Both the position numbers and the translations under genes were made by a program. 64,000 nucleotides of DNA from a virus (lineage: Duplodnaviria; Caudoviricetes). The notes beneath the pieces are model-generated. The model did no database searches. It was not told the DNA's origin and worked only from the letters and a program-made list of their open reading frames with translations. This document shows, piece by piece, positions 6,733 through 19,561 of the stretch. Location of the stretch: positions 1 through 64,000 of the IMG/VR virus record IMGVR_UViG_3300020369_000001. The stretch is one strand, 5' to 3'. Position 1 is the first letter of the stretch, and each line of letters starts with the position of its first letter.

Positions 6733-7968
6733 ATGGCTATTGATAAACAACAGTATTTAGATATAGCCCGTGAAAGATACACCCAACAGTTCAAAGAGAA
6801 ATCCAACATTGATAGGTTGGTAGCAACGTGGTTATCGGGTTCTGAAGAAATCCAAGATGTTTTATCTGATGTGGACGATATTAAATACATCGACAAGGCT
6901 TCAGGAATCCAGTTAGACAATATTGGTGAGATTGTTGGACAACCACGTATTCTTATAGACGCTGATTTGATAGCCTTCTTTGGTTATCAAGGGTTATCAA
7001 TATCACGGTCTTACGGTGATTTAAACGATGCTTCGAAAGGTGGTCGTTGGAAAGCATTAGAAGAATCTTCAACAGGTAATATTACATTAAATGACCCTGA
7101 ATACAGGTTGTTCATAAGGGCTAAAATACTTCGCAATAAGACAGTCGCCACCACTGAAGATGTTATAGAATCTATTAAGTTTCTTTTCCAAGCTGAACGT
7201 GTGCATCTGTTAGAAGACACAGGCCCAGCCTCTTATAGAGCTGCGATTGGTAAGGTTCTTTCACAACAAGAGAAGAACCTAATAAGGTATGAGTACCAAG
7301 ATGGTGTCAAAAGGAACCTACTTGTAAAACCTGCCGGTGTAGGTTTCGGTGATTTCTCTGAATACAACCCCGAACAGTTCTTTGGTTTCGAAGGTGTTAG
7401 TGGTGCTAAGGGTTATGGGACACTTTTAGAGGTTGGTGAGTATGTACCTTACTTTACATCCTTTGGTATGTTTGGCTATGGAGATTTAAGAGATATAGCA
7501 GATGTTAATATCTATTATAACTATACGATGTCTTCAAGACACACTACTAGGGGAGTATCCAGAGATGGGGATTCTGTAGATATACCTATCAGTAACACCA
7601 TCCAAGAGGTTTATGTAGATGGGGCTTTTACAGACTCTTACACTGTTTCGAAGAACCGTGTAACATTCCCTTATGAGCTTACTGCTGGAACCCCTATCAC
7701 AGTAGTTGAGAGGTTTGGTCAAGAAGTGATTACAACTGACTATACGTTCAAAGACCCTGCTGTGACAACTTTATCAAGGAGGCAGTATGAATCATCTTTC
7801 GGTGATGTGAACGATCCTCAAAAAGGTTCACGGTATAGGTCATTAGGTGAACCGCAAGGTGCTAATAACATCCTCAATACTGGCCCGATAAAGAAATTAG
7901 AATACTTCGATAACGATGCTACAGAGCTTACTGAAACAGGTGGCTATTATTCATCTATTATAACGTAA
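6733..7968 (+). CDS. Baseplate wedge protein (DUF2612/gpI-like) with C-terminal extension
   Basis: ASGIQLDNIGEIVGQPR and LNDPEYRLFIRAKI motifs; follows baseplate J. Confidence 0.7.
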   Translation: MAIDKQQYLDIARERYTQQFKEKSNIDRLVATWLSGSEEIQDVLSDVDDIKYIDKASGIQLDNIGEIVGQPRILIDADLIAFFGYQGLSISRSYGDLNDASKGGRWKALEESSTGNITLNDPEYRLFIRAKILRNKTVATTEDVIESIKFLFQAERVHLLEDTGPASYRAAIGKVLSQQEKNLIRYEYQDGVKRNLLVKPAGVGFGDFSEYNPEQFFGFEGVSGAKGYGTLLEVGEYVPYFTSFGMFGYGDLRDIADVNIYYNYTMSSRHTTRGVSRDGDSVDIPISNTIQEVYVDGAFTDSYTVSKNRVTFPYELTAGTPITVVERFGQEVITTDYTFKDPAVTTLSRRQYESSFGDVNDPQKGSRYRSLGEPQGANNILNTGPIKKLEYFDNDATELTETGGYYSSIIT

Positions 7969-7977
7969 GGTATCAAT

Positions 7978-10254
7978 ATGAATGCAAATAAGTTAACAAA
8001 TTTTACGAAAGTTCTCCATAAAACTGATAGAGCTTCGGAAGTATTGATGTTCGATCAAAGTGGTAACCCTTCGTCAATAAATCCTGGTGGCCTTGTGATC
8101 GGCACGCAGACGGTGGCCGAGGCGCTGGATCGTCGGGGAATTCGCTTCACAGCACTTCGTGCACCGACCAGCGGTGAGTTTGATCCAGAAGATTATTTGG
8201 AAACCAGCACCAAAATTCAGCTCGGGGTGTTCTGCTATACTCTCGGCTACTACTCACCAGGAGATGGCGGCGGTAATGATTATGAGATCGTAGCAGCGGG
8301 GACTGGTACGGATGATGGTGGGTCGTTTATCAACTTGTCGGGCAGTGGATTGCAAGCTAAGGGGTTGTTTGGTGCCACGGTCAATGTGAAACAGTTCGGG
8401 GCTATTGGCGATGGCGTTGCGGATGATACAGCGCCTTTTAACGGCGCGATCGCACAGATCAATACTGCTAGCCAAGAGATGTTTATACCTGCTGGCATTT
8501 TCCGCATTACGTCTAATTTGCAAACAGTAACTCGATATTGCTCAGTGCGCGGTGATAGCCGATCAGTGACGCGGCTTTTGTTTGAAAACTGCAACGGCCT
8601 AAATTTTAACCTCTCGCTAAGCGATACAATTTATATCAGCACGATAGTAGAGAGTGTTTCACTATTAACTGATGGAGATAGTCACACCGGCATTTACTTC
8701 AAAGGCAAGCAAAGCTATGCGCCACATGATCCCGCTTTAGTGTTAAGAGATGTTTCAATAACCACTTCGGCGGCATATGATAGCAGTGTGGGAGATTCGG
8801 CTGAGTGGGGATGCGCTATTGATCTTGATGATGTTGACGAGGTCTTGCTTGATAATGTCTATGTATGCGGGTCAGAACTCAACGCAAAATTTCCTAGTAG
8901 AACCAGCTCTATTGGAATTAGAGTATCAACAGTTACAGGCTTGCGCATTTCAGATAGCCAGATTTTCTTACTAGGAACCGGTATTGATGTATCCGGTCAG
9001 TCAGAAGGAGGAATTTTTTCCGGGCTAACTATAGTGTCTGTCGATGTTGGTATAGAGTTCCATGATTTAATCAGCCCTTCCAATAATCATGTTATAGAGG
9101 GTTCGCATATTGCCGCATACACTAGGGGGGTTAGAATCACAGGATACGGCGTGTCGGAAATGATAACCGCAGTGTTCATCAGTAATTGCTTCATTCTTGA
9201 AAGAGAGGAAGCAACCACTACTACTAAAAGTGAATACGTCGCACTTGATATTATAGCGGAGCGTTCTGTTATAAGTAATACAACAATACAGTGTAATACT
9301 AGCAGGACACCAAGCAGAACCGCCATAAGGATTCCAAGCAGCAATAACATAATATCCAATATTATTGGATTAAATATAGGATCGCTTATTGATGCTGTAG
9401 ACTCAGGAGACGGAAGGTTTAGCTATGTTTCAAATTGTATAGCAAACGGGAATTTAGATTCTTTAACTAAGGGCGCGACACACCTTTTTGTTAAAGGTGG
9501 CAATGTAATGGGGTCTATGCAGACGACAGCGCATTGGAATGCAAACACTTTCGCTGCGGCTGATTTAGACGATAAGAACTTGTTTGAGTTTTCGGGTAGG
9601 CGACTACTCCTTGGCGCTGATCGCGACAAGGGCTCTCGATACATTGACTTTAGAACACTTGTGGCAGGGACAGCAGATTTTGACACAAGAATCCTTTCTA
9701 TAGGGGGTGGCGCAGCAACGGGGCAAGGGTCTTTGATATTTTACTCCTCATCGTCAATTTTTGAGGGTCAGATCAGGCCTTCAGTAGATTCTGAATTCTC
9801 TACGGGCAGCCCTAGTTACAGGTGGTCGGAGATTTACTCGACCACGGGCACAATAAACACGTCCGACGAGCGTGAAAAACAGGATATCTCGACTCTTGAT
9901 GCGTCGGAGGCGCTAGTCGCAAAGCGGCTAAAAAGCCTAGTCAAAAAATTCCGCTTCCGCGATGCCGTCGAAAAAAAGGGAGCTGATGCTCGCATTCACG
10001 TTGGCGTGATTGCACAGGAGGTTGCCGAAGCCTTCGCAGATGAAGGGCTTGATGCTCACCGCTACGGCATCCTCTGCTACGACGAGTGGGGCGAGCAAGA
10101 AGAGATCATTCAGTCTTGGGAAAATGAGTACGATGGCAATGGCGCACTGACTAGATCAGCAGGTAGCGAGGTAGTACAAGAATACCGCCCTGCTGGGAAC
10201 CGTTACGGCGTGCGCTATGAAGAACTTCTAGCCTTTATTATCAGCGCTATGTAA
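7978..10254 (+). CDS. Tailspike/depolymerase (pectate-lyase-like beta-helix) with C-terminal intramolecular chaperone (peptidase S74)
   Basis: GYYSPGDGGG head-binding-type motif, NVKQFGAIGDGVADDT beta-helix start, and GSPSYRWSEIY..TGTINTSDEREK plus GVIAQEV...YGVRYEEL chaperone motifs. Confidence 0.87.
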   Translation: MNANKLTNFTKVLHKTDRASEVLMFDQSGNPSSINPGGLVIGTQTVAEALDRRGIRFTALRAPTSGEFDPEDYLETSTKIQLGVFCYTLGYYSPGDGGGNDYEIVAAGTGTDDGGSFINLSGSGLQAKGLFGATVNVKQFGAIGDGVADDTAPFNGAIAQINTASQEMFIPAGIFRITSNLQTVTRYCSVRGDSRSVTRLLFENCNGLNFNLSLSDTIYISTIVESVSLLTDGDSHTGIYFKGKQSYAPHDPALVLRDVSITTSAAYDSSVGDSAEWGCAIDLDDVDEVLLDNVYVCGSELNAKFPSRTSSIGIRVSTVTGLRISDSQIFLLGTGIDVSGQSEGGIFSGLTIVSVDVGIEFHDLISPSNNHVIEGSHIAAYTRGVRITGYGVSEMITAVFISNCFILEREEATTTTKSEYVALDIIAERSVISNTTIQCNTSRTPSRTAIRIPSSNNIISNIIGLNIGSLIDAVDSGDGRFSYVSNCIANGNLDSLTKGATHLFVKGGNVMGSMQTTAHWNANTFAAADLDDKNLFEFSGRRLLLGADRDKGSRYIDFRTLVAGTADFDTRILSIGGGAATGQGSLIFYSSSSIFEGQIRPSVDSEFSTGSPSYRWSEIYSTTGTINTSDEREKQDISTLDASEALVAKRLKSLVKKFRFRDAVEKKGADARIHVGVIAQEVAEAFADEGLDAHRYGILCYDEWGEQEEIIQSWENEYDGNGALTRSAGSEVVQEYRPAGNRYGVRYEELLAFIISAM

Positions 10255-10297
10255 CCCTCACGAACAAGCGTTATACAGCAAGCCAGGAGGCTTCCTA

Positions 10298-10324
10298 ATG
10301 GCAACAGATATTAACGCCCTCTAG
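10298..10324 (+). pseudogene. Truncated gene start (MATDINAL*) with strong RBS
   Basis: AGGAGG followed by ATG GCA ACA GAT ATT AAC GCC CTC TAG directly after the tailspike gene. Confidence 0.35.
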
Positions 10325-10354
10325 TCCGATCTACCCATGTCGTCTTGACGCCAC

Positions 10355-10383
10355 ACTCACCCCACACTCTGGGGTGAGTTTTT
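10355..10383 (+). terminator. Rho-independent terminator
   Basis: Perfect 10-bp stem ACTCACCCCA/TGGGGTGAGT followed by a T-run. Confidence 0.85.
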
Positions 10384-10464
10384 AATTATAGCTGTCACTT
10401 GATACTCTCTAATATATACTACTCTTTAGATCAAACTTACTAATAGTTATATTGGATTAATATT

Positions 10465-10797
10465 ATGTCTAATGAGTCATTAGAGGTGCAACTGGCAAGA
10501 CTAGATGAACGCAATAAAATGATTCTTATGAACATGGAAAATAGTCAACGTGATTCCAAAGAAGCACGAGAACATTTAAGGGAAGCCTTTGAATCTATTC
10601 GTTCTATTGATTCTAGATTGGAGAGATTAGAAGGCAGCTTTGCTACAACACAGCCTACAATTAATGAGTTCCGATCAGTAAAACAGAAGATAATTGGGGC
10701 AGGAATTTTAGGTAGGTGGGTATGGGTGGCTTTAACTGGTATCCTAGGATTACTCTATACAGTGCGTGAACATGTCATCGCATTTGTCACCAAATAA
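10465..10797 (+). CDS. Coiled-coil plus C-terminal TM protein (holin-like, N4-like-phage type)
   Basis: QLARLDER N-terminus and PTINEF..VKQKIIGAGILGRWVW C-terminus resemble the membrane protein found upstream of the portal gene in N4-like phages (recognised from memory). Confidence 0.55.
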   Translation: MSNESLEVQLARLDERNKMILMNMENSQRDSKEAREHLREAFESIRSIDSRLERLEGSFATTQPTINEFRSVKQKIIGAGILGRWVWVALTGILGLLYTVREHVIAFVTK

Positions 10798-10811
10798 TAT
10801 GAGTAGCATAT

Positions 10812-10958
10812 ATGAATGACGATAATGAAATTCCTACTTTTAATGCAGCCATGCCCCCAAAGCTCACTGACTGGGAAAAGGAACCAAGCCTAAGAGACTT
10901 CGCATACCCTAATCAAACACAAATAGTAAACATAACCTTAACAGGTGACTTCGCATAA
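10812..10958 (+). pseudogene. N-terminal stub of an N4-like portal protein gene
   Basis: Unlisted 48-codon ORF MNDDNEIPTFNAAMPPKLTDWEKEPSLRDF... The KLTDWxKEPSL motif is the start of Schitoviridae portals. The similarity ends at an 11-bp direct repeat GACTTCGCATA (10896-10906 and 10947-10957). Confidence 0.6.
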
Positions 10959-10982
10959 ACATTTTTTTAAAGGTGATTTAAC

Positions 10983-13151
10983 ATGACTAAGATTGAAAAA
11001 CCCTTAAACCTTACGAATACAATTTGGGCAGCAGGTGGGGAAGCTGTAGAACCCTCTAATTCAAAGAAACTCCAAGGGTGGGTTGCTGAAATCCCCCCTT
11101 TCCAATTTGAAAACTGGCTTCAAAACCGTAATGACCGTGCGCTTGCACATATCATCCAAATGGGTATCCCTGAATGGGATGCAAACACTGAATACCAAGC
11201 TAACCAATCTTATGTACAAGATGAAGATGGTGAGGTTTACCGTGCAACTGAGACACATACAGGTGTCAATCCTAAGTACGATACTGCAAACGTATGGGAA
11301 CAACCCTTCTCATTCGATGCTCTAAAAGAACTTGCCACAGAAGAATCTACAGGTGTTGTTCGTAAAGCTGCTCAACAAGATATTGACCAAGGTACTCCTG
11401 GTTCTATCTTTGCAGACCCTTCGCAGATTCGACAGCTTGTTGAGAATATTAATGCCTCTTGGATAACAGGTGGTGTTCTTTCAAGTGGTACGTTACCAGA
11501 TGCTACGGAATCTGATAAAGGCGCTGTGCGTAAAGCACGTCAATCAGACATTGATAATGGTACTGGTGATGATCGTTTCATCAGCCCTCGCCAGTTAAAA
11601 TCCGTAGCTGATGATATTAAATCAACAACTGCTGGTGTAGCTTTATCAGGCAATCCTGTGATTACAGCAGGTTCTTCTGAGAATTATCAAATCACTAACT
11701 TCTCATCTTTCGATACTTATGAAGTTTCTATTGAGTTTGATAATGGTGGTACTGGGAATGTCTCTATCACGGATGATCTAATTTCTGTAGATATTGATGC
11801 AGGTGCTACTGGCGGGGTCATTTTAACAGTCACTAAAGGGGGTGTTGCTTATGACTTCGAACTTGCTATCGGGTCTTCTCGAATTAACCGTCCATCTATT
11901 ATATTCCCTGTAAATGGTGCTACTAATATGCCTACAAATATCACGTTAGAATCTTCGAACTTCACAACCACACCAGCAGGCTTTGACACACACACTGCAA
12001 CTGATTGGCAAGTAGCTACTGACATCACGTTTAGTAATGTTATTGCAGAGTCTTTAAATGACACGACTAATCTTTTACAGTGGTCTGTAGATGCTGATTT
12101 ACAACCTAATACAACCTACTACGCAAGGGTTCGTTATTATGGCAATACATTAACAGTATCCTCTTGGTCACAAACAGCTTCTTTTGAGACTGCTGAGCGG
12201 CCTGCCACACCTACTATCACAAGCCCTTCGAATGGTGAGATTAATGTTGGAGAAACACCGACAATCACTACGAGTAACTTTTCAAGTCCTATTAGTGAAA
12301 CCCATCAAGCAACAGATTGGGAAATCCGTTTAGCTTCGAATGATTCTTTAGTATGGTCTTCGATGAACAACACTTCTAATCTTACTTCTATTACGGTTCC
12401 TTCAGGACAACTTGCTGAGTCTACTGAATACCGTATCCGTGTAAGACATATCGGTTCTCAGTTAGGAGCTTCTGCATGGGGTACTTCTACATTTACTACT
12501 GAAGCGCAGTTCTTTGTATTTGATCCAAGCAGTGCTGGTGAACCTTTTGGTGGTGGTTATTATGCAGGCGCTAATATCGTTGTAGGTGGTACTACTTATG
12601 CGTTGGTAGTTGCTCCTAAAGCGCAAGGTGGTGAAGCCGGTTCAACATTACCTTGGGAGTGGACTGTTGATCCAGATGTTCCAGGGGCAACCTCTACTAA
12701 TGATGGTGCAAGTAATACCGCAGCGATTGTAGCGGCAGGTGGTTCTTCTACAAGTGTTGCGGCGGGGTTTTGCAATAATCTTAGTATCAATGGTTACACT
12801 GATTGGCATTTGCCTAGTGCTGATGAACTTGAGATTTGTTATCGGTATTTGAAACCCACTACTCAGGCTAACTATGTAAATTCTAGTTATGGGCCTAATC
12901 CTGGTGGTAATGGTTCTAACCCTAATAGTGATCCTGTTGGTGGTGATTATACTTCTAGTAATCCTGCACAGACTTCTATTGCTATCTACCAATCTGGTGC
13001 GAGTGAGGCGTTTGTTGCTAATTACTACTGGACTTCAACGCAGCTCTCCGCTGGGGTCGCTTGGCGCCAGCGCTTCGACAATGGCGACCAGGGCACGTAC
13101 CTCAAGTCGGACTCGTACTACGTCCGCGCAGTTAGATGGGTCGAAGTGTAA
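10983..13151 (+). CDS. Tail fibre / receptor-binding protein with Ig/Fn3-like repeats and C-terminal Lcl (DUF1566, C-type-lectin fold) domain
   Basis: Baseplate-anchoring N-terminus (WAAGG..P..K..GW..EIPPFQFENWLQNR), EWDANTEY module, two ATE..G.VR repeats, two P.I.SP.NG...H.ATDW Ig-like repeats, and Lcl motifs GYTDWHLPSADEL and YWTSTQ..A..AW.Q.F.NG.Q....K...YVRAVR. Confidence 0.85.
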   Translation: MTKIEKPLNLTNTIWAAGGEAVEPSNSKKLQGWVAEIPPFQFENWLQNRNDRALAHIIQMGIPEWDANTEYQANQSYVQDEDGEVYRATETHTGVNPKYDTANVWEQPFSFDALKELATEESTGVVRKAAQQDIDQGTPGSIFADPSQIRQLVENINASWITGGVLSSGTLPDATESDKGAVRKARQSDIDNGTGDDRFISPRQLKSVADDIKSTTAGVALSGNPVITAGSSENYQITNFSSFDTYEVSIEFDNGGTGNVSITDDLISVDIDAGATGGVILTVTKGGVAYDFELAIGSSRINRPSIIFPVNGATNMPTNITLESSNFTTTPAGFDTHTATDWQVATDITFSNVIAESLNDTTNLLQWSVDADLQPNTTYYARVRYYGNTLTVSSWSQTASFETAERPATPTITSPSNGEINVGETPTITTSNFSSPISETHQATDWEIRLASNDSLVWSSMNNTSNLTSITVPSGQLAESTEYRIRVRHIGSQLGASAWGTSTFTTEAQFFVFDPSSAGEPFGGGYYAGANIVVGGTTYALVVAPKAQGGEAGSTLPWEWTVDPDVPGATSTNDGASNTAAIVAAGGSSTSVAAGFCNNLSINGYTDWHLPSADELEICYRYLKPTTQANYVNSSYGPNPGGNGSNPNSDPVGGDYTSSNPAQTSIAIYQSGASEAFVANYYWTSTQLSAGVAWRQRFDNGDQGTYLKSDSYYVRAVRWVEV
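13026..13133 (+). other. DGR-type variable region (VR) at the 3' end of the tail fibre gene
   Basis: Fixed codons (TGG, CAG, TTC, AAT GGC, CAG, AAG, GTC CGC GCA GTT) alternate with NNC codons (CTC, GTC, CGC, CGC, GAC, GAC, GGC, TAC, CTC, GAC, TAC) derivable from AAC by adenine-only mutation. G/C-ending codons are 30 of 35 at 13023-13127 versus 7 of 35 in the preceding stretch. Confidence 0.8.
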
Positions 13152-13164
13152 CGCAGCGAAGCGT
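13151..13164 (+). promoter_or_regulatory. Hairpin directly downstream of the VR (ACGC-AGCGAA-GCGT, containing the GCGAAGC mini-hairpin)
   Basis: Occupies the position of the post-IMH hairpin required for DGR target recognition. Confidence 0.5.
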
Positions 13165-13328
13165 AGTTGGAACGAAGTACCCATCCCTATAACCTAAACC
13201 TTGGTGGTCGCTGCCTCCGGGCAAGCACCATCTCTACTAATCATTGTTGAAGCCCTGAACTGAGTCTTGCTGTTGTAAGGTTTCCAGTATAAACTTTAAA
13301 GTACACCTTATGAGTAAAGGAGTTTTAA

Positions 13329-13874
13329 ATGTACTTTAAACCATTACCGCAACAGCAATTCCTACAAGAGTGCTTTGACTACAATGACAACACAGGCCAA
13401 CTTACTTGGAAAGAACGTCCAAGAACACACTTTAACACGAACAACGCGCATAAAAGGTTTAACAATACACTCTCCGGTAAAATCGTTGGGACTACGCATA
13501 AGGGGAGAATGATTGTAAGATTCACATCCCAAGGGAAAGCATTAAATTACCCAATAGGCAGACTGATCTTCAAACTTGTTACTGGCGAAGACCCTAAAGG
13601 TGTCATTGACCATATCGACGGCAACCCTTTCAACAACGCTTGGGACAACCTGCGTGACATAAGTATAGGTGATAATGTGGCAAATATGCATAGTGTTAAG
13701 CGTAAAGGTTTACAAGGTGTTTGTTATGATAAGTCTCGGGGGAAGTGGTTGGCTAACATTAGGATACGCGGTAAAAAGATTTACTTAGGTCGTTTTGAAA
13801 CCGAACAAGAAGCATATGACGTTTACATGCAAGCCAAACAAAAACGTCTGTCAGAAATTAAAGAAATCATTTAA
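13329..13874 (+). CDS. Free-standing HNH homing endonuclease with C-terminal AP2-like DNA-binding domain
   Basis: IDHIDGNPFNNAWDNLR HNH motif, plus GV...KSRGKW.A.I...GKKIYLGRF.TEQEA..Y AP2 motif. Confidence 0.9.
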   Translation: MYFKPLPQQQFLQECFDYNDNTGQLTWKERPRTHFNTNNAHKRFNNTLSGKIVGTTHKGRMIVRFTSQGKALNYPIGRLIFKLVTGEDPKGVIDHIDGNPFNNAWDNLRDISIGDNVANMHSVKRKGLQGVCYDKSRGKWLANIRIRGKKIYLGRFETEQEAYDVYMQAKQKRLSEIKEII

Positions 13875-13898
13875 AAACCAATCAGGAGTATCTACACT

Positions 13899-14513
13899 AT
13901 GAAATACATCCGTTACACATTAGTTGATAAGAAAACCAATAAACCTGTTTCACAAGAACCTGCAAAGAATGGCCCAAAACATCCTGACGGTGTTACCCCA
14001 ACATTCGATATTCAATCAACATTCTCAACAGGTGTTCCTACAATCTACGGTATTGCTGAAGATACTTTTGAACCCGCTGATTGGATGTTTGAACTCTCCG
14101 AAGAATCCTTCTACACCACCATGCGACAAGAATTTAAAACACGTGCTTCAGATCGTCGCAAGACTGTAGAGCGTGGTGGGTATTGGGTAACTCCTGAGAC
14201 TTTTGTAAGAACTGACGAAGGTTCCCAGAACCGTCTTGCACAGCTTGTGACAACCATTAATAACGATCCTGATCTTGTATCAGTAGACTTCGAAGTAACA
14301 CCAGGACAATGGACAACCTTTGATACAGCTACTGCATTAACGGTTGCAAAGACAGTATCAAGGCATGTCCAACGTTGCTTTAGCTGGTGTAAAGGTGTCC
14401 ATGAATCTTTAGATGCTGCAAATACTTTAGATCAAATGCAACCTATTGTCAACGATATTTCAAACTTTGTTGCTGACGATAACCCGCCTGTGCAGGCTAC
14501 ACAAGATGCTTGA
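13899..14513 (+). CDS. Tail fibre assembly-type protein (DUF4376-like)
   Basis: RRKTVERGG...VRTDEGSQNRL...HVQRCFSW pattern; follows the fibre gene. Confidence 0.6.
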   Translation: MKYIRYTLVDKKTNKPVSQEPAKNGPKHPDGVTPTFDIQSTFSTGVPTIYGIAEDTFEPADWMFELSEESFYTTMRQEFKTRASDRRKTVERGGYWVTPETFVRTDEGSQNRLAQLVTTINNDPDLVSVDFEVTPGQWTTFDTATALTVAKTVSRHVQRCFSWCKGVHESLDAANTLDQMQPIVNDISNFVADDNPPVQATQDA

Positions 14514-14667
14514 TTCATTGACTATTAAAGAATGGCAGCTTATCTACTTCTTAATCACAATGACTTTCACACTGTTTAACACACTCGTCTTGTTATCTTG
14601 TGTACGTGTTGTAGATAAACTGTTCCATGAGAGTGAGTTATTAAAACTTATTAAGAAACAAACATAA
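14506..14667 (+). CDS. Small single-TM membrane protein
   Basis: MLDSLTIKEWQLIYFLITMTFTLFNTLVLLSC hydrophobic stretch in the lysis region. Confidence 0.45.
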   Translation: MLDSLTIKEWQLIYFLITMTFTLFNTLVLLSCVRVVDKLFHESELLKLIKKQT

Positions 14668-16867: not shown

Positions 16868-19561
16868 TTATGCTTCGCAAGCCACGCAGTCATCCTTACG
16901 GCCCGTAGCAAGTTGTTTAGAGGCGTTCAAGTTGTATTGGTAGTAGAGTGATACAACACCACGTTCCCAAGCATAATACATAAGACTGTTAATCTCTTTC
17001 ACAGGCATACTTGGATGAACCATGATATTCAAAGACTGGCTCTGGTCATAATATACCTGACGATCAGCGGCGTGGTCAATAATTTCTTTAGGACTGATTT
17101 CTTGCATTGTCTTGAACACATTCTTTTCATGTTCACTCAAGAAGTCCAGATGCTGAACACTGCCATCATTTTTAGAAATGCTGTCCCAAACGTCAGGTGT
17201 GTCCTTGCCATATTCTTGCAAAAGCTTTTCCAATGCTGAACTTTTAACTTCTACCTTGAGCTTTGCAAAATCAGCAATGTAATAGTTAGAGAATAGTGGC
17301 TCAATACCCTGCGACACACCGCCAGCCAAAAGACTTGAAGACTTTGTAGGGGCGCACGCCATGAGCGTTGTGTTACGTCTCCCATACCCTTCAAGCACTT
17401 CAGGTTCACCAAACAATCCTGCAAGCTCTTTAGAAGCCTTGTAAGCCTTCTCTTCAATAACCTTATGGACTTCTTTGTTCAATTCTCTTGCTTCTTCAGA
17501 CTCAAAAGGGATCATCTTGTCTTGAAGCATTGTGTGGTAAGCTAGTACGCCCATTCCGAGCGCTCTGTGACGCTTCATAAAACGATATGCACGCTTCATA
17601 AAAAAGAATGTTGTTTCCTTTTCATGGTCTTCAGAATCCCGCATAGCTTCAAGTTTCTCAAGGCTTTCTGTAACTACTGAGTCAAGGAAGTACACAAGTG
17701 TTTCTACAGCATCCGTGTCTTTCCAATCATCATACTTCTTCAAGTTCATTGATGAAAGCACGCACACAAAGCTCTCTTCATTGTTTGAAGGCAGTGATAT
17801 TTCCGAGCATTGGCCTGTCAAAATACCGTTAAACATACCCATTCCACGTTTACTTTCAGTGAAACAGTAGGTGTTGTCATAACGCCCCTCATCAATAACT
17901 TCTACCACTTTGTTGAAGTGGCTGCATTCACGGTTCCCACGATAACTGTAGTCAAGATTAAGGCGGCTAAATTTTATACCTAAATCTACAAGCTTGCCTA
18001 CTTCATGTTGACCGAGCAATAATCTCCAAGCTTCTTGGCAATAGAACGCTTTATTCTCACCAGAACCATCATTAGCAGGCATCATCCTTTCACCAGCATC
18101 GGCAGCATGGTTGATACGTGAGTTTACCCCAAGCGTTTGCAGCATCATTTGAACATCTTGCAAAAACCCTTTGTTAATACTCCCCAGTTGCAAGGATTGT
18201 GTCTTTCCATTTCTGGCGATTGTCCCATCAGAATCGAATATACCTGCTAACCATTCTAAACGACTTTCTACAGTATAGTCATGGGTAGGCACAAAGAACT
18301 TATCTTTCAATACATCGCTGTGACCATACTCCCGGTTCAAGTTGTCTTGAACATACCAATTTTTAAAGATGTCTCCAAGCCGTTCTTTTACAGCATTGAG
18401 TCTTTTGTCGTGGTAGAGGTAAATGCGTTTTCCGTCAGCAGTTAAGCAGCCATCGCCAGTATAGAAACCGTTTGCGTAAGCGTTGTCTAGGACTTCGGAA
18501 CCCTCTACGACAGGCAAAGAGTCAAACTTAATCAGCTTATCACCGGTTTGCAAGTCCTGTGCGCGCTTTTCAATCACTTTACTACAACTGTAGGAAGTCT
18601 GCACATAGAACTTGTGGTAAGGTGTACATTCTAGTTCCAATCCATTAGAAGTAATAACCTTTACAAGCTTCTGGTTATCCCCTGTCCTTCGAACTGTAGT
18701 TTCAGACCACTCTTTACCATTCCATACTTGTACATCTTCATTTTCTAATTCGGCAATTTCGATATAACCTTCAGAAGTTAAGATTTTAGTCTCGGGGGAT
18801 ACACAAAGATTACTAGAGTGAATATCCATACCCTTGTCTTTGTAGACTTCTGGTTTATTTCGATTTGCGTTATCCAACCACACCAAGTACGGAAAGCCTA
18901 TCTCTCCACGAACTTTCAAAGTTTTCGCCCAAATCTTACGGTTCCGCTTATCTCTTTCAGTCTCCCCGCGTTTAACAGATTCCATAAATTCATCTGAAAC
19001 AGTGACGCCTGTAGTAACATCTTGGATCAAATTCCCGTCGCGTGCAATCTCTAAAAACTCTTCTGCGTCCGCGTGCTCAAGACTCAGATAGGGTGCTACC
19101 CGACCCCTTCGCTGCGAACCTTGGGAGATTACATCAGTAACCTGTTCGAAGAGTCGTGCAAAATGTACTGCTCCAGAAGTCTTTCCATTATTGGTAATGT
19201 CGCTACCCCTTGGTCGAATAGGTGTTAGATTAACTGACGTGCCACCGCCAAGTTTTGACATAATACCAATCTCAGACTGTGTAAAAAGAATGTCTGGAAT
19301 GCTGTCTTCACAGTGACTGTTAAAACATGAGATAGGCAACCCACGATCTTCACGGCCATAGTTTGCCCATACAGGACTCGACAAGCTATAGAAACCCTTT
19401 GCCATGTAGTCATACATCTTGTTAGAGAATCCTTCTAACCCAAGACGTTTCTCAGCAGCATCGCAAATATCTCGGATACGTCCTTCGGCAGTTTCTCCCT
19501 CTAATGTGTATCCAGACTGTAGAAATTTACGTGAGTTTTCGTTCAACCATTCAAATGACAT
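16868..19561 (-). CDS. nrdA: Class I ribonucleotide reductase alpha subunit lacking an ATP-cone, intein-containing
   Basis: SLSSPVWAN, LPISCF, GGGTS, SNLC/CSEI, LGMGV, APTKSSS, SQSLN, SLYY and C-terminal CVACEA. Confidence 0.95.
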   Translation of the reverse strand: MSFEWLNENSRKFLQSGYTLEGETAEGRIRDICDAAEKRLGLEGFSNKMYDYMAKGFYSLSSPVWANYGREDRGLPISCFNSHCEDSIPDILFTQSEIGIMSKLGGGTSVNLTPIRPRGSDITNNGKTSGAVHFARLFEQVTDVISQGSQRRGRVAPYLSLEHADAEEFLEIARDGNLIQDVTTGVTVSDEFMESVKRGETERDKRNRKIWAKTLKVRGEIGFPYLVWLDNANRNKPEVYKDKGMDIHSSNLCVSPETKILTSEGYIEIAELENEDVQVWNGKEWSETTVRRTGDNQKLVKVITSNGLELECTPYHKFYVQTSYSCSKVIEKRAQDLQTGDKLIKFDSLPVVEGSEVLDNAYANGFYTGDGCLTADGKRIYLYHDKRLNAVKERLGDIFKNWYVQDNLNREYGHSDVLKDKFFVPTHDYTVESRLEWLAGIFDSDGTIARNGKTQSLQLGSINKGFLQDVQMMLQTLGVNSRINHAADAGERMMPANDGSGENKAFYCQEAWRLLLGQHEVGKLVDLGIKFSRLNLDYSYRGNRECSHFNKVVEVIDEGRYDNTYCFTESKRGMGMFNGILTGQCSEISLPSNNEESFVCVLSSMNLKKYDDWKDTDAVETLVYFLDSVVTESLEKLEAMRDSEDHEKETTFFFMKRAYRFMKRHRALGMGVLAYHTMLQDKMIPFESEEARELNKEVHKVIEEKAYKASKELAGLFGEPEVLEGYGRRNTTLMACAPTKSSSLLAGGVSQGIEPLFSNYYIADFAKLKVEVKSSALEKLLQEYGKDTPDVWDSISKNDGSVQHLDFLSEHEKNVFKTMQEISPKEIIDHAADRQVYYDQSQSLNIMVHPSMPVKEINSLMYYAWERGVVSLYYQYNLNASKQLATGRKDDCVACEA
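17810..18805 (-). mobile_element. Intein (332 aa) with LAGLIDADG endonuclease in NrdA
   Basis: Starts CVSPETKILT after SNL, has block B LECTPYHKFY and LAGLIDADG motifs GFYTGDG and WLAGIFDSDG, and ends MFNGILTGQ followed by extein Cys (CSEI). Confidence 0.93.

What the first reader, a model, noticed from the sequence alone, without database searches (positions are those of the whole stretch)
13020..13185. Orphan DGR variable region in a lytic phage tail fibre, with no TR, Avd or RT in sight: possible in-trans hijacking of a host diversity-generating retroelement
Seen: the last ~40 codons of the 722-aa fibre gene switch abruptly from T-ending codons (7/35 G/C-ending at 12918-13022) to 30/35 G/C-ending (13023-13127). 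Invariant codons for YWxSTQ..A..AW.Q.F.NG.Q...K....VRAV alternate with NNC codons (CTC, GTC, CGC, CGC, GAC, GAC, GGC, TAC, CTC, GAC, TAC). A GC element (GTCCGCGC), a short IMH-like tail and a hairpin (ACGC-AGCGAA-GCGT) follow. Known: this is the signature of adenine-specific mutagenic retrohoming from an AAC-rich template repeat into an Lcl/DUF1566 C-type-lectin-fold target. But the next genes are an HNH nuclease and a fibre chaperone, and I found no template repeat, Avd or reverse transcriptase anywhere in these 64 kb. The unseen part appears to be the capsid-to-tape-measure block. Inference: either the phage keeps only the target and homing signals and is diversified in trans by a host or prophage DGR (receptor diversification at no genome cost), or it swapped in the VR or lost its RT very recently. 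The back-mutated template would read approximately TACTGGACTTCAACGCAGAACTCCGCTAA(G/C)AACGCTTGGAACCAGAACTTCAACAATGGCAACCAGAACACGAACAACAAGACGAACACGAACAACGTCCGCGCAGTT.
Basis: partly seen in the sequence, partly recalled or inferred. Interest (0 to 1): 0.9.

Follow-up and report, generated by a model that had tools for sequence, protein, structure and literature searches.

The report
Orphaned DGR target; cassette replaced by HNH
The tip of this marine phage's tail-fibre gene is a genuine hypermutation target of a diversity-generating retroelement, but the reverse-transcriptase cassette that sister phages still carry at this spot has been replaced here by a selfish homing-endonuclease gene, so the target looks frozen, not rewritten by a host element.

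Summary
Window 13038-13127 is a 90-nt DGR variable region (VR) at the 3' end of an Lcl_C tail-fibre gene. The complete 72,839-bp genome has no RT, Avd or template repeat (TR).

The missing parts are in sister phages. Four relatives (L057/L058, L059, L003, L006) carry Avd-TR-RT exactly between the fibre terminator and the DUF4376 gene. The window has an HNH_3-AP2 endonuclease gene there (13329-13874). The last 24 nt of the RT gene survive as a scar (13875-13898).

The TR of L057 differs from the window VR at 18 of 32 adenines but at only 1 of 58 other bases.

Other relatives lost the cassette in other ways: two further HNH alleles, an HNH pseudogene and an Avd stump.

The window's VR is nucleotide-identical in every HNH-a contig examined, across several ocean data sets. 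A 1.49-kb block of fibre tip, VR and HNH is 100% identical between sublineages whose flanks differ by 2-4%.

No bacterial TR fits. A host-DGR hijack is therefore not supported. Recent cassette loss with a frozen VR is the best reading.

Rewriting in trans by co-infecting DGR+ sister phages is not excluded. The homing signals are intact, and VRs differ among HNH-bearing relatives.

The parts
10983..13151 (+). Tail-fibre gene (722 aa), the DGR target protein
   Evidence: ORF. PHROG tail-fibre families match the N-terminus and Pfam Lcl_C matches aa 588-718. Orthologues in 10 related loci.
12744..13136 (+). Lcl_C (DUF1566-type, C-type-lectin-like) domain that holds the VR
   Evidence: Pfam PF07603, E=1.2e-10, 42.1 bits against a cut-off of 34.9, aa 588-718.
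13038..13127 (+). DGR variable region (90 nt, 30 codons), starting ACGCAG and ending GTCCGC
   Evidence: Aligns without gaps to the TRs of L057, L059, L003 and L006. Against TR_L057 there are 18/32 mismatches at adenines and 1/58 elsewhere. Relatives differ at codon positions 1 and 2 only, never at position 3.
13128..13151 (+). IMH-like 3' boundary, where VR and TR stop matching, running to the stop codon
   Evidence: In the DGR+ sisters the VR continues GCNGTTAGATGGG while the TR continues AAAGTAT or AAAATAT. The VR form is kept in all 11 loci.
13135..13185 (+).
   Evidence: RNAalifold on 11 loci gives an 8-bp stem kept in all. There are compensatory changes at two pairs: C-G to U-A in 4 loci and A-U to G-C in 1. 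The DNA fold is -16.5 kcal/mol, z=-1.97.
13203..13229 (+). Terminator-like GC hairpin after the fibre gene, the last element shared with the DGR+ sisters
   Evidence: Alignment and fold. Homology to L057 runs to 13252 and to L003 to 13236.
13253..13874 (+). Replacement segment that occupies the place of the 1,752-bp Avd-TR-RT cassette of L057 (L057 6270-8021)
   Evidence: blastn junctions: window 12908-13252 matches L057 5926-6269 and window 13875-14098 matches L057 8022-8245 at 99.6%.
13329..13874 (+). HNH_3 + AP2 homing-endonuclease-type gene (HNH-a, 181 aa)
   Evidence: Pfam HNH_3 3.2e-9 and AP2 1.8e-8. PHROG 99 HNH endonuclease 1e-44. Only 37% aa identical to the HNH at the same site in L002, while the flanking genes are 92-97% identical.
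13875..13898 (+). Scar: the last 24 nt of the lost RT gene, which also carries the ribosome-binding site of the next gene
   Evidence: Identical to L057 8022-8045, which lies inside the RT ORF 6994-8049.
13899..14513 (+). DUF4376 tail-fibre-associated gene, the conserved right flank of the cassette site
   Evidence: Pfam DUF4376 and PHROG 10508. It follows the RT in L003, L006, L057 and L059, and follows the HNH in L002, L055 and the window. It is 97-100% identical to DGR+ L057.
12453..13937 (+). 1,485-bp block (fibre tip, VR, intergenic region, HNH-a) with no SNP between two sublineages
   Evidence: L060-L063 differ from the window by 85 SNPs in 3,757 nt. None lies in 12453-13937.

Best explanation
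Window 13038-13127 is a true DGR variable region at the tip of an Lcl_C tail fibre of a marine tailed phage (baseplate-wedge and sheath-initiator genes lie beside the fibre gene in relatives). An ancestor carried the canonical layout: target(VR)-Avd-TR-RT-DUF4376. Adenine-specific mutagenic retrohoming from a TR of that cassette wrote the present VR.

The 1.75-kb Avd-TR-RT cassette was then replaced by a free-standing HNH homing-endonuclease gene. The VR, its IMH-like end, a conserved stem and 24 nt of the RT gene were left behind. Without TR and RT the VR is a frozen snapshot of one receptor-binding variant.

The fibre tip, VR and HNH now travel together as one recombination block. This fits endonuclease-driven gene conversion with co-conversion of flanks.

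Shown: the VR identity, the absence of the cassette, the junctions and scar, the cassette in sisters, and VR invariance in this genotype. Inferred: that the HNH caused the replacement by homing, and that no rewriting occurs today.
For: 1. The complete genome has no RT, Avd or TR.
2. Four sister loci have bAvd/PHROG-Avd, a TR and an RVT_1 RT between the fibre and DUF4376. Their own VR and TR differ only at TR adenines, with 0 non-A mismatches each.
3. Junctions: homology to L057 ends at 13252 and resumes at 13875 at 99.6%. The resumed stretch includes the last 24 nt of the RT ORF.
4. TR_L057 against the window VR gives 18/32 A-site and 1/58 non-A mismatches.
5. Loss is recurrent at this site. 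There is HNH-a (window), HNH-b1 (L002, L054), HNH-b2 (L055), an HNH-b2 pseudogene (L056), and an Avd stump whose first 88 aa are 93% identical to the L057 Avd (L067).
6. The DGR+ phage L057 nests among the HNH phages in the DUF4376 tree. Its path distance to the window is 0.033, against 0.042-0.054 for L002, L055 and L056.
7. The window VR is nucleotide-identical in all 12 HNH-a places read. P0001 lies on 22 contigs and P0122 on 18, and HNH-a is indexed in 58 blocks. The sources include Tara Oceans runs and other data sets, and a sublineage with 2-4% flank divergence.
8. DGR-less VRs carry private non-adenine changes (L002 2, L005 1, L055 1, L056 1, L067 3-4). The four DGR+ VRs carry none against their own TR. 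This is expected once overwriting stops.
Against: - The window VR itself shows no decay: no private non-A change.
- Third codon positions of the VR are identical in the window, L002 and L005. Flanking third positions differ by 14-27% (P=0.009 to 7e-5). The VRs were therefore written late relative to flank divergence.
- L002 and L054 share an orthologous HNH (94.4% nt, like their flanks), yet they differ at 16 VR positions, 13 of them TR-adenine sites. This needs repeated homing into different DGR+ genomes, short-patch recombination, or rewriting after the loss.
- The IMH-like end and stem are fully intact, so nothing prevents trans retrohoming.
- Assembled consensus contigs cannot reveal minority VR variants.
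- Endonuclease activity and homing of the HNH were not tested.
Confidence: 0.8

Rival explanations
1. The orphan VR is still diversified, but in trans by co-infecting DGR+ sister phages rather than by a host element. Their Avd, RT and TR RNA act on any VR in the cell that carries the matching 3' boundary and stem. The HNH phages would then free-ride on kin that pay for the cassette.
For: Avd, TR and RT are known to work in trans from a plasmid, and DGRs are known to act on non-adjacent targets (Wu et al. 2018, PMC5758913, section 13).

The cis elements are intact. A stem supported by covariation is kept in all 11 loci, including the DGR-less ones.

DGR+ sisters exist with a TR only 1 non-A base away from the window VR. 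Their adjacent DUF4376 gene is 97-100% identical to the window's.

L002 and L054 share the same HNH allele (94.4% nt), yet their VRs differ mostly at adenine sites (13 of 16 differences), with no third-position change. L055 and L056 share HNH-b2 and also have different VRs.
Against: No VR variant appears among the many contigs of the HNH-a genotype, across data sets and two sublineages.

DGR-less VRs keep private non-A mutations that a rewrite would erase.

For L055 against L056, and the window against L055, divergence is also raised in the 100 nt upstream of the VR (78-79% identity). That points to recombination of the whole tip module, not to retrohoming.

Co-occurrence of DGR+ and HNH phages in one sample was not shown.
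Confidence: 0.13
2. The phage keeps only the target and homing signals, and a DGR of its bacterial host or of a resident prophage diversifies it.
For: The 33-nt TR core TGGAACCAGAACTTCAACAATGGCAACCAGAAC occurs in DGR-like loci of 28 species genomes, including Legionella, Methylococcaceae, Chlorobiaceae, Actinobacteria, Spirochaetes and Patescibacteria. Lcl_C-type TRs are therefore common in bacteria.
Against: The family-specific VR/TR pattern has no match in 185,579 species genomes. In the metagenome collection it matches only the contig of sister phage L006.

The bacterial TRs that share the core have 10-25 non-A mismatches to the window VR and unrelated 3' ends. TR-VR homology at the 3' boundary, which retrohoming needs, is therefore absent.

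The cognate cassette is found in sister phages at the orthologous site, which explains the VR without a host element.

The VR is invariant in this genotype.
Confidence: 0.03
3. The GC-rich segment is not DGR-derived. It is a compositional island from horizontal transfer, or a chance codon pattern in a lectin-fold domain.
For: The Lcl_C scaffold motif (YW.ST...AW...F..G......K....VRAVR) is conserved for structural reasons and occurs in non-DGR proteins too (own knowledge).
Against: The segment aligns base for base with TRs of sister phages. Mismatches are confined to adenines (p=2e-9). Relatives vary only at positions 1 and 2 of the AAC-templated codons. An RT scar lies next to it.
Confidence: 0.01

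Closest known systems
Bordetella phage BPP-1 DGR (mtd-avd-TR-brt), the prototype
   Same: The target is a phage tail-fibre protein with the VR at its extreme 3' end. A boundary where VR and TR diverge follows, and then a stem. The sister phages L057, L059, L003 and L006 have the same gene order: target, Avd, TR, RT. Mutagenesis is adenine-specific.
   Different: This genome has no avd, TR or RT. The target domain is Pfam Lcl_C (DUF1566 type), not Mtd. The GC element is short (GTCCGCGC). The stem is a long-range 8-bp helix with a variable interior, not the compact hairpin described for BPP-1 (own knowledge of Guo et al. 2011).
DUF1566/Lcl_C-type DGR targets (category d / CLec2 of Wu et al. 2018, exemplified by Legionella pneumophila LdtA)
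   Same: The VR class is the same (PMC5758913). The 33-nt TR core of the sister phages is identical to that in Legionella pneumophila, L. tunisiensis and many other bacteria.
   Different: Those are bacterial surface lipoproteins with a resident cassette. Here the target is a phage fibre and the cassette is gone. The 5' and 3' parts of those TRs do not fit this VR (10-25 non-A mismatches).
DGRs with non-adjacent (remote) targets
   Same: A VR with homing signals but no RT next to it (Wu et al. 2018 section 13; Roux et al. 2021 note that such targets are missed by surveys).
   Different: In those cases the RT and TR are elsewhere in the same genome. Here the complete 72.8-kb genome has none.
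Free-standing HNH homing endonuclease genes of phages (for example the T4 mob/seg genes; own knowledge)
   Same: A small HNH ORF sits in an intergenic slot. Close relatives show presence/absence and allele polymorphism at exactly the same site. A tract of perfectly identical flanking DNA matches co-conversion. The genome carries other such elements: an RNR intein with LAGLIDADG, and earlier notes of an intron HNH in the tape-measure gene.
   Different: What is displaced is a DGR cassette. I found no description of that in the paper library. Cleavage site and homing were not demonstrated.

Membership tests
Diversity-generating retroelement (complete, cis-acting DGR) | DGR-type reverse transcriptase encoded in the genome | tested here: not met
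   RVT_1 six-frame search of the whole 72,839-bp record gave no candidate. tblastn with the RT of sister L057 gave only noise, E>=5.
Diversity-generating retroelement (complete, cis-acting DGR) | Template repeat matching the VR except at adenines | tested here: not met
   An adenine-tolerant ungapped scan of both strands gave a best non-self window with 44 non-A mismatches. The L057 cassette matches the genome only at the VR.
Diversity-generating retroelement (complete, cis-acting DGR) | Accessory protein Avd | tested here: not met
   TIGR02436 six-frame search gave no match. tblastn with the L057 Avd gave E=4.2 noise.
DGR target gene / variable region | VR differs from a cognate TR at adenine positions only | tested here: met
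   Against the TR of sister phage L057 there are 18/32 A-site and 1/58 non-A mismatches, p=2e-9. The single non-A site is shared by five related VRs and matches the L003 TR. The cognate TR itself is not in this genome.
DGR target gene / variable region | VR at the C-terminus of a C-type-lectin-like ligand-binding domain | tested here: met
   Pfam Lcl_C at aa 588-718, above the curated cut-off. No structure was predicted.
DGR target gene / variable region | 3' homing signals: GC-rich end, IMH-like boundary and downstream stem | tested here: inconclusive
   The sequence elements are present and conserved, with two covarying pairs across 11 loci. Their function in homing was not tested.
DGR target gene / variable region | Variation among related genomes confined to TR-adenine positions | tested here: met
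   The window, L002 and L005 show 7-10 differences each at codon positions 1 and 2 of the 30 VR codons and 0 at position 3. Eleven distinct VRs were found in the family. Within the window's own genotype there is no variation.
HNH homing endonuclease gene (free-standing) | HNH nuclease domain with a DNA-binding module | tested here: met
   Pfam HNH_3 3.2e-9 and AP2 1.8e-8. PHROG 99, 1e-44.
HNH homing endonuclease gene (free-standing) | Insertion polymorphism at one site among close relatives, with co-converted flanks | tested here: met
   The same slot holds HNH-a, HNH-b1, HNH-b2, an HNH pseudogene or Avd-TR-RT. A 1,485-bp block has no SNP while its flanks differ by 2-4%.
HNH homing endonuclease gene (free-standing) | Site-specific cleavage of the HNH-less allele, and homing | not testable with these tools
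   Needs a biochemical or co-infection assay.

The most novel reading that the evidence does not exclude
Orphan VRs with intact homing signals act as landing pads. Phages that have swapped their DGR cassette for a homing endonuclease still get their fibre tip rewritten now and then, when they co-infect a cell with a DGR+ sister phage. Hypermutation would then be a shared good within a recombining phage population, and the HNH lineages would be free-riders. This would explain why phages sharing one orthologous HNH allele (L002/L054, L055/L056) carry VRs that differ chiefly at adenine-templated positions, and why VR third positions show no drift.
Probability: 0.15. Interest if true: 0.8.

Novelty: new variant of a known kind. 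Interest (0 to 1): 0.45.

Why it matters
DGR surveys start from the RT, so targets that have lost their cassette go uncounted. This family gives a clean natural series in one recombining group of ocean phages. It contains DGR+ members and at least four independent kinds of cassette loss at a single site.

The series shows three things:
- Hypermutation cassettes in phages turn over quickly.
- A selfish endonuclease gene can take their place.
- The endonuclease can then carry one frozen receptor-binding variant through the population as a linked block.

It also provides a concrete system for asking whether DGRs act across genomes during co-infection. The components are a matching TR donor (L057-type), intact acceptor sites and a built-in negative control.

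Tried and rejected
- Searching for the TR in the window and in the whole genome gave nothing.
- A family-specific degenerate VR/TR pattern found only sister phages in viral contigs and metagenome contigs, and nothing in genome contigs.
- The exact 33-nt TR core found 28 bacterial and 12 viral loci, but none is compatible with this VR. L012, a high-GC phage DGR with a similar core, is unrelated at its 3' end.
- GenBank phages hold no close relative. The best matches were about 30-37% aa identical, to parts of Pseudomonas phage proteins.
- A molecular-clock argument from third codon positions was considered as proof of post-loss rewriting. I rejected it as decisive because these phages are mosaics, so flank divergence is not a measure of time.
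For these, absence of an RT outside the fetched loci is untested. G001 (50 kb, 69% complete) and G002 were searched and have none.
It was rerun reading from files.
- Literature searches for DGR loss to homing endonucleases, or for orphan VRs in phages, found nothing specific.
- No structure or complex prediction was run, because the Pfam assignment and the TR alignments made them unnecessary.
Full report
**What is in the sequence**

The fibre ORF 10983-13151 encodes 722 aa. Its N-terminus matches PHROG tail-fibre families, and aa 588-718 match Pfam Lcl_C. There are 7/35 G/C-ending codons at 12918-13022, 30/35 at 13023-13127, and 26% over the rest of the gene. GC reaches 0.59-0.62 in a genome of 0.40. 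Downstream lie an HNH_3+AP2 gene (13329-13874) and a DUF4376 gene (13899-14513).

**The whole genome lacks the cassette**

The window is the first 64 kb of a 72,839-bp virus record that is rated complete and has a 77-bp terminal overlap. Several searches of the full record found nothing:
- a six-frame search for RVT_1;
- a six-frame search for Avd;
- tblastn with a sister phage's RT and Avd, which gave only noise;
- an adenine-tolerant scan for a TR.

So this is not an ordinary cis DGR hidden in the unseen 8.8 kb.

**Where the missing parts are**

A protein-guided scan of IMG/VR and a search of the large protein collection found a family of related phage contigs. Several come from Tara Oceans or other marine metagenomes.

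In L003, L006, L057/L058 (a 72,006-bp contig in an NCBI metagenome-assembled genome) and L059, the fibre gene is followed by three elements:
- a 126-aa Avd (Pfam bAvd; PHROG "Avd protein of DGR", 1e-13);
- a 90-nt TR;
- an RVT_1 reverse transcriptase (PHROG 1423, 5e-96).

The DUF4376 gene follows these. In each of the four, the VR and its own TR differ at 14-17 adenines and at no other base. These are canonical DGRs.

**The junctions**

Window homology to L057 runs to 13252, just past the fibre terminator hairpin. It resumes at 13875 with 99.6% identity. L057 has 1,752 bp there (Avd, TR, RT). The window has 622 bp (the HNH gene and its leader). Window 13875-13898 is identical to the last 24 nt of the L057 RT ORF, so it is a scar of the lost gene.

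The L057 TR differs from the window VR at 18 of 32 adenines and at 1 of 58 other bases (Fisher p=2e-9). That one base (codon 20, ACG rather than GAG) is shared by five related DGR-less VRs and by the L003 TR. The window lineage's own TR, not sampled, probably read ACG there.

**Loss is recurrent**

The same slot holds different contents in different relatives:
- HNH-a in the window;
- a 177-aa HNH only 37% identical to HNH-a in L002 and L054;
- a third allele in L055, about 72% nt identical to the L002 allele although the flanks are 94-99% identical;
- a pseudogene of that third allele in L056;
- in L067, an Avd stump (first 88 aa 93% identical to the L057 Avd) followed by an HNH-like 3' remnant.

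These rest. In a tree of the adjacent DUF4376 gene, the DGR+ phage L057 sits inside the shallow cluster of HNH phages. It is closer to the window than L002, L055 or L056 are. Cassette and HNH are therefore alternative occupants of one hot spot in a mosaic, recombining population.

**Is the window's VR still changing?**

The exact fibre protein lies on 22 contigs. A variant with 13 substitutions elsewhere but the same VR lies on 18 contigs. The exact HNH-a protein is indexed in 58 blocks of the collection. All 12 places read have the identical 90-nt VR.

The second sublineage differs from the window by 85 SNPs in 3.76 kb, yet none lies in 12453-13937. Fibre tip, VR, intergenic region and HNH-a thus form a block transferred as a unit. 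This is what endonuclease-driven gene conversion with co-conversion would give, though it would also fit exchange of a receptor-binding module.

The DGR-less VRs of the other lineages carry 1-4 private non-adenine changes each. The four DGR+ VRs carry none, as expected once overwriting has stopped. Together these results favour a frozen relic.

**What keeps the trans idea alive**

- The VR's 3' boundary is intact.
- An 8-bp stem (13135-13142 with 13177-13185) is kept in all 11 loci, with compensatory changes at two pairs.
- The window VR has no private non-adenine change.
- Among the window, L002 and L005, the 30 VR third positions show no difference, although flanking third positions differ by 14-27%.
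- L002 and L054 share an orthologous HNH (94.4% nt, like their flanks), yet they differ at 16 VR positions, 13 of them TR-adenine sites.

This last pattern requires one of three things. The endonuclease may have homed repeatedly into different DGR+ genomes. Short patches may have recombined. Or the VR may have been rewritten after the loss.

Avd, TR and RT are known to act in trans within a cell (PMC5758913). Co-infecting DGR+ sisters are therefore plausible donors.

Against this, raised divergence also extends about 100 nt upstream of the VR in some pairs. That points to module exchange rather than retrohoming. No variant has been seen in the abundant HNH-a genotype.

**Host DGR**

The family-specific VR/TR pattern has no match in one genome for each of 185,579 prokaryote species. 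The 33-nt TR core does occur in 28 such genomes from many phyla. Those TRs have 10-25 non-adenine mismatches to this VR and unrelated 3' ends. The host of this phage is unknown, so a strain-specific element cannot be excluded. Nothing points to one, and the orthologous cassette in sister phages makes it unnecessary.

**Comparison and novelty**

The object is a member of the known class of DGR targets (DUF1566/Lcl_C type, category d of Wu et al. 2018). It is not a DGR, because three defining components were tested and are absent.

Two things appear to be new. First, a homing-endonuclease gene has displaced the cassette repeatedly and at one site. Second, a frozen VR is linked to that selfish gene. 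I found no description of either in the paper library.

This is a new variant of a known kind. It is of moderate interest as it stands, and of high interest only if trans rewriting by kin were shown.

Noticed in passing
L016-L043 (genome contigs) and L044-L053 (viral contigs): The 33-nt TR core TGGAACCAGAACTTCAACAATGGCAACCAGAAC is identical at the nucleotide level in DGR-like loci of Legionella, Methylococcaceae, Chlorobiaceae, Actinobacteria, Spirochaetes, Bacteroidales, Chloroflexota and Patescibacteria. This is striking conservation across phyla and GC contents. It explains why the VR is a GC island in a 40% GC phage.
   Followed up: partly
L065 (NCBI GCA_002706095.1, PAJP01000006.1, 114,763 bp): A 114.8-kb contig of a metagenome-assembled genome carries a stretch 100% identical to window 9483-14651. 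That is 1.6 times the phage genome length. It may be a concatemer, a mis-binned phage or an integrated copy, and it might hint at the host.
   Followed up: no
window 7978-10797; L057 3042-4001; L060 1-1476: The tailspike gene (758 aa, Peptidase_S74/pectate-lyase) and the 110-aa ORF upstream of the fibre are absent in DGR+ L057 and L059, where the wedge gene abuts the fibre. In L060 and L055 a 1001-aa protein takes their place. This is a second swap site next to the fibre gene.
   Followed up: no
L067 3918-4310 and L056 2943-3663: Two decay intermediates. L067 keeps an Avd stump fused to an HNH-like 3' remnant, with no TR or RT. L056 has a disrupted copy of the L055-type HNH, of which only a 60-aa ORF is left.
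   Followed up: partly
L054 (G002) about nt 900-930: The fibre gene of this contig changes reading frame about 930 nt into the contig. The scan returned it as two loci, L007 and L005. It is either a frameshifted fibre or an assembly error.
   Followed up: no
window 16868-19561 (-): In L055 the orthologue of this 897-aa ribonucleotide reductase large subunit is annotated with Intein_splicing and LAGLIDADG_3 hits. Together with the earlier notes of an intron-borne HNH in the tape-measure gene, this genome is rich in selfish endonucleases.
   Followed up: no
L012 (IMGVR_UViG_3300049855_000365): A high-GC phage contig has its own VR/TR pair of the same Lcl_C type. It has a different 3' part (KDYEGRVRAVRR) and one non-AAC codon (GCC) in the TR core.
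   Followed up: partly
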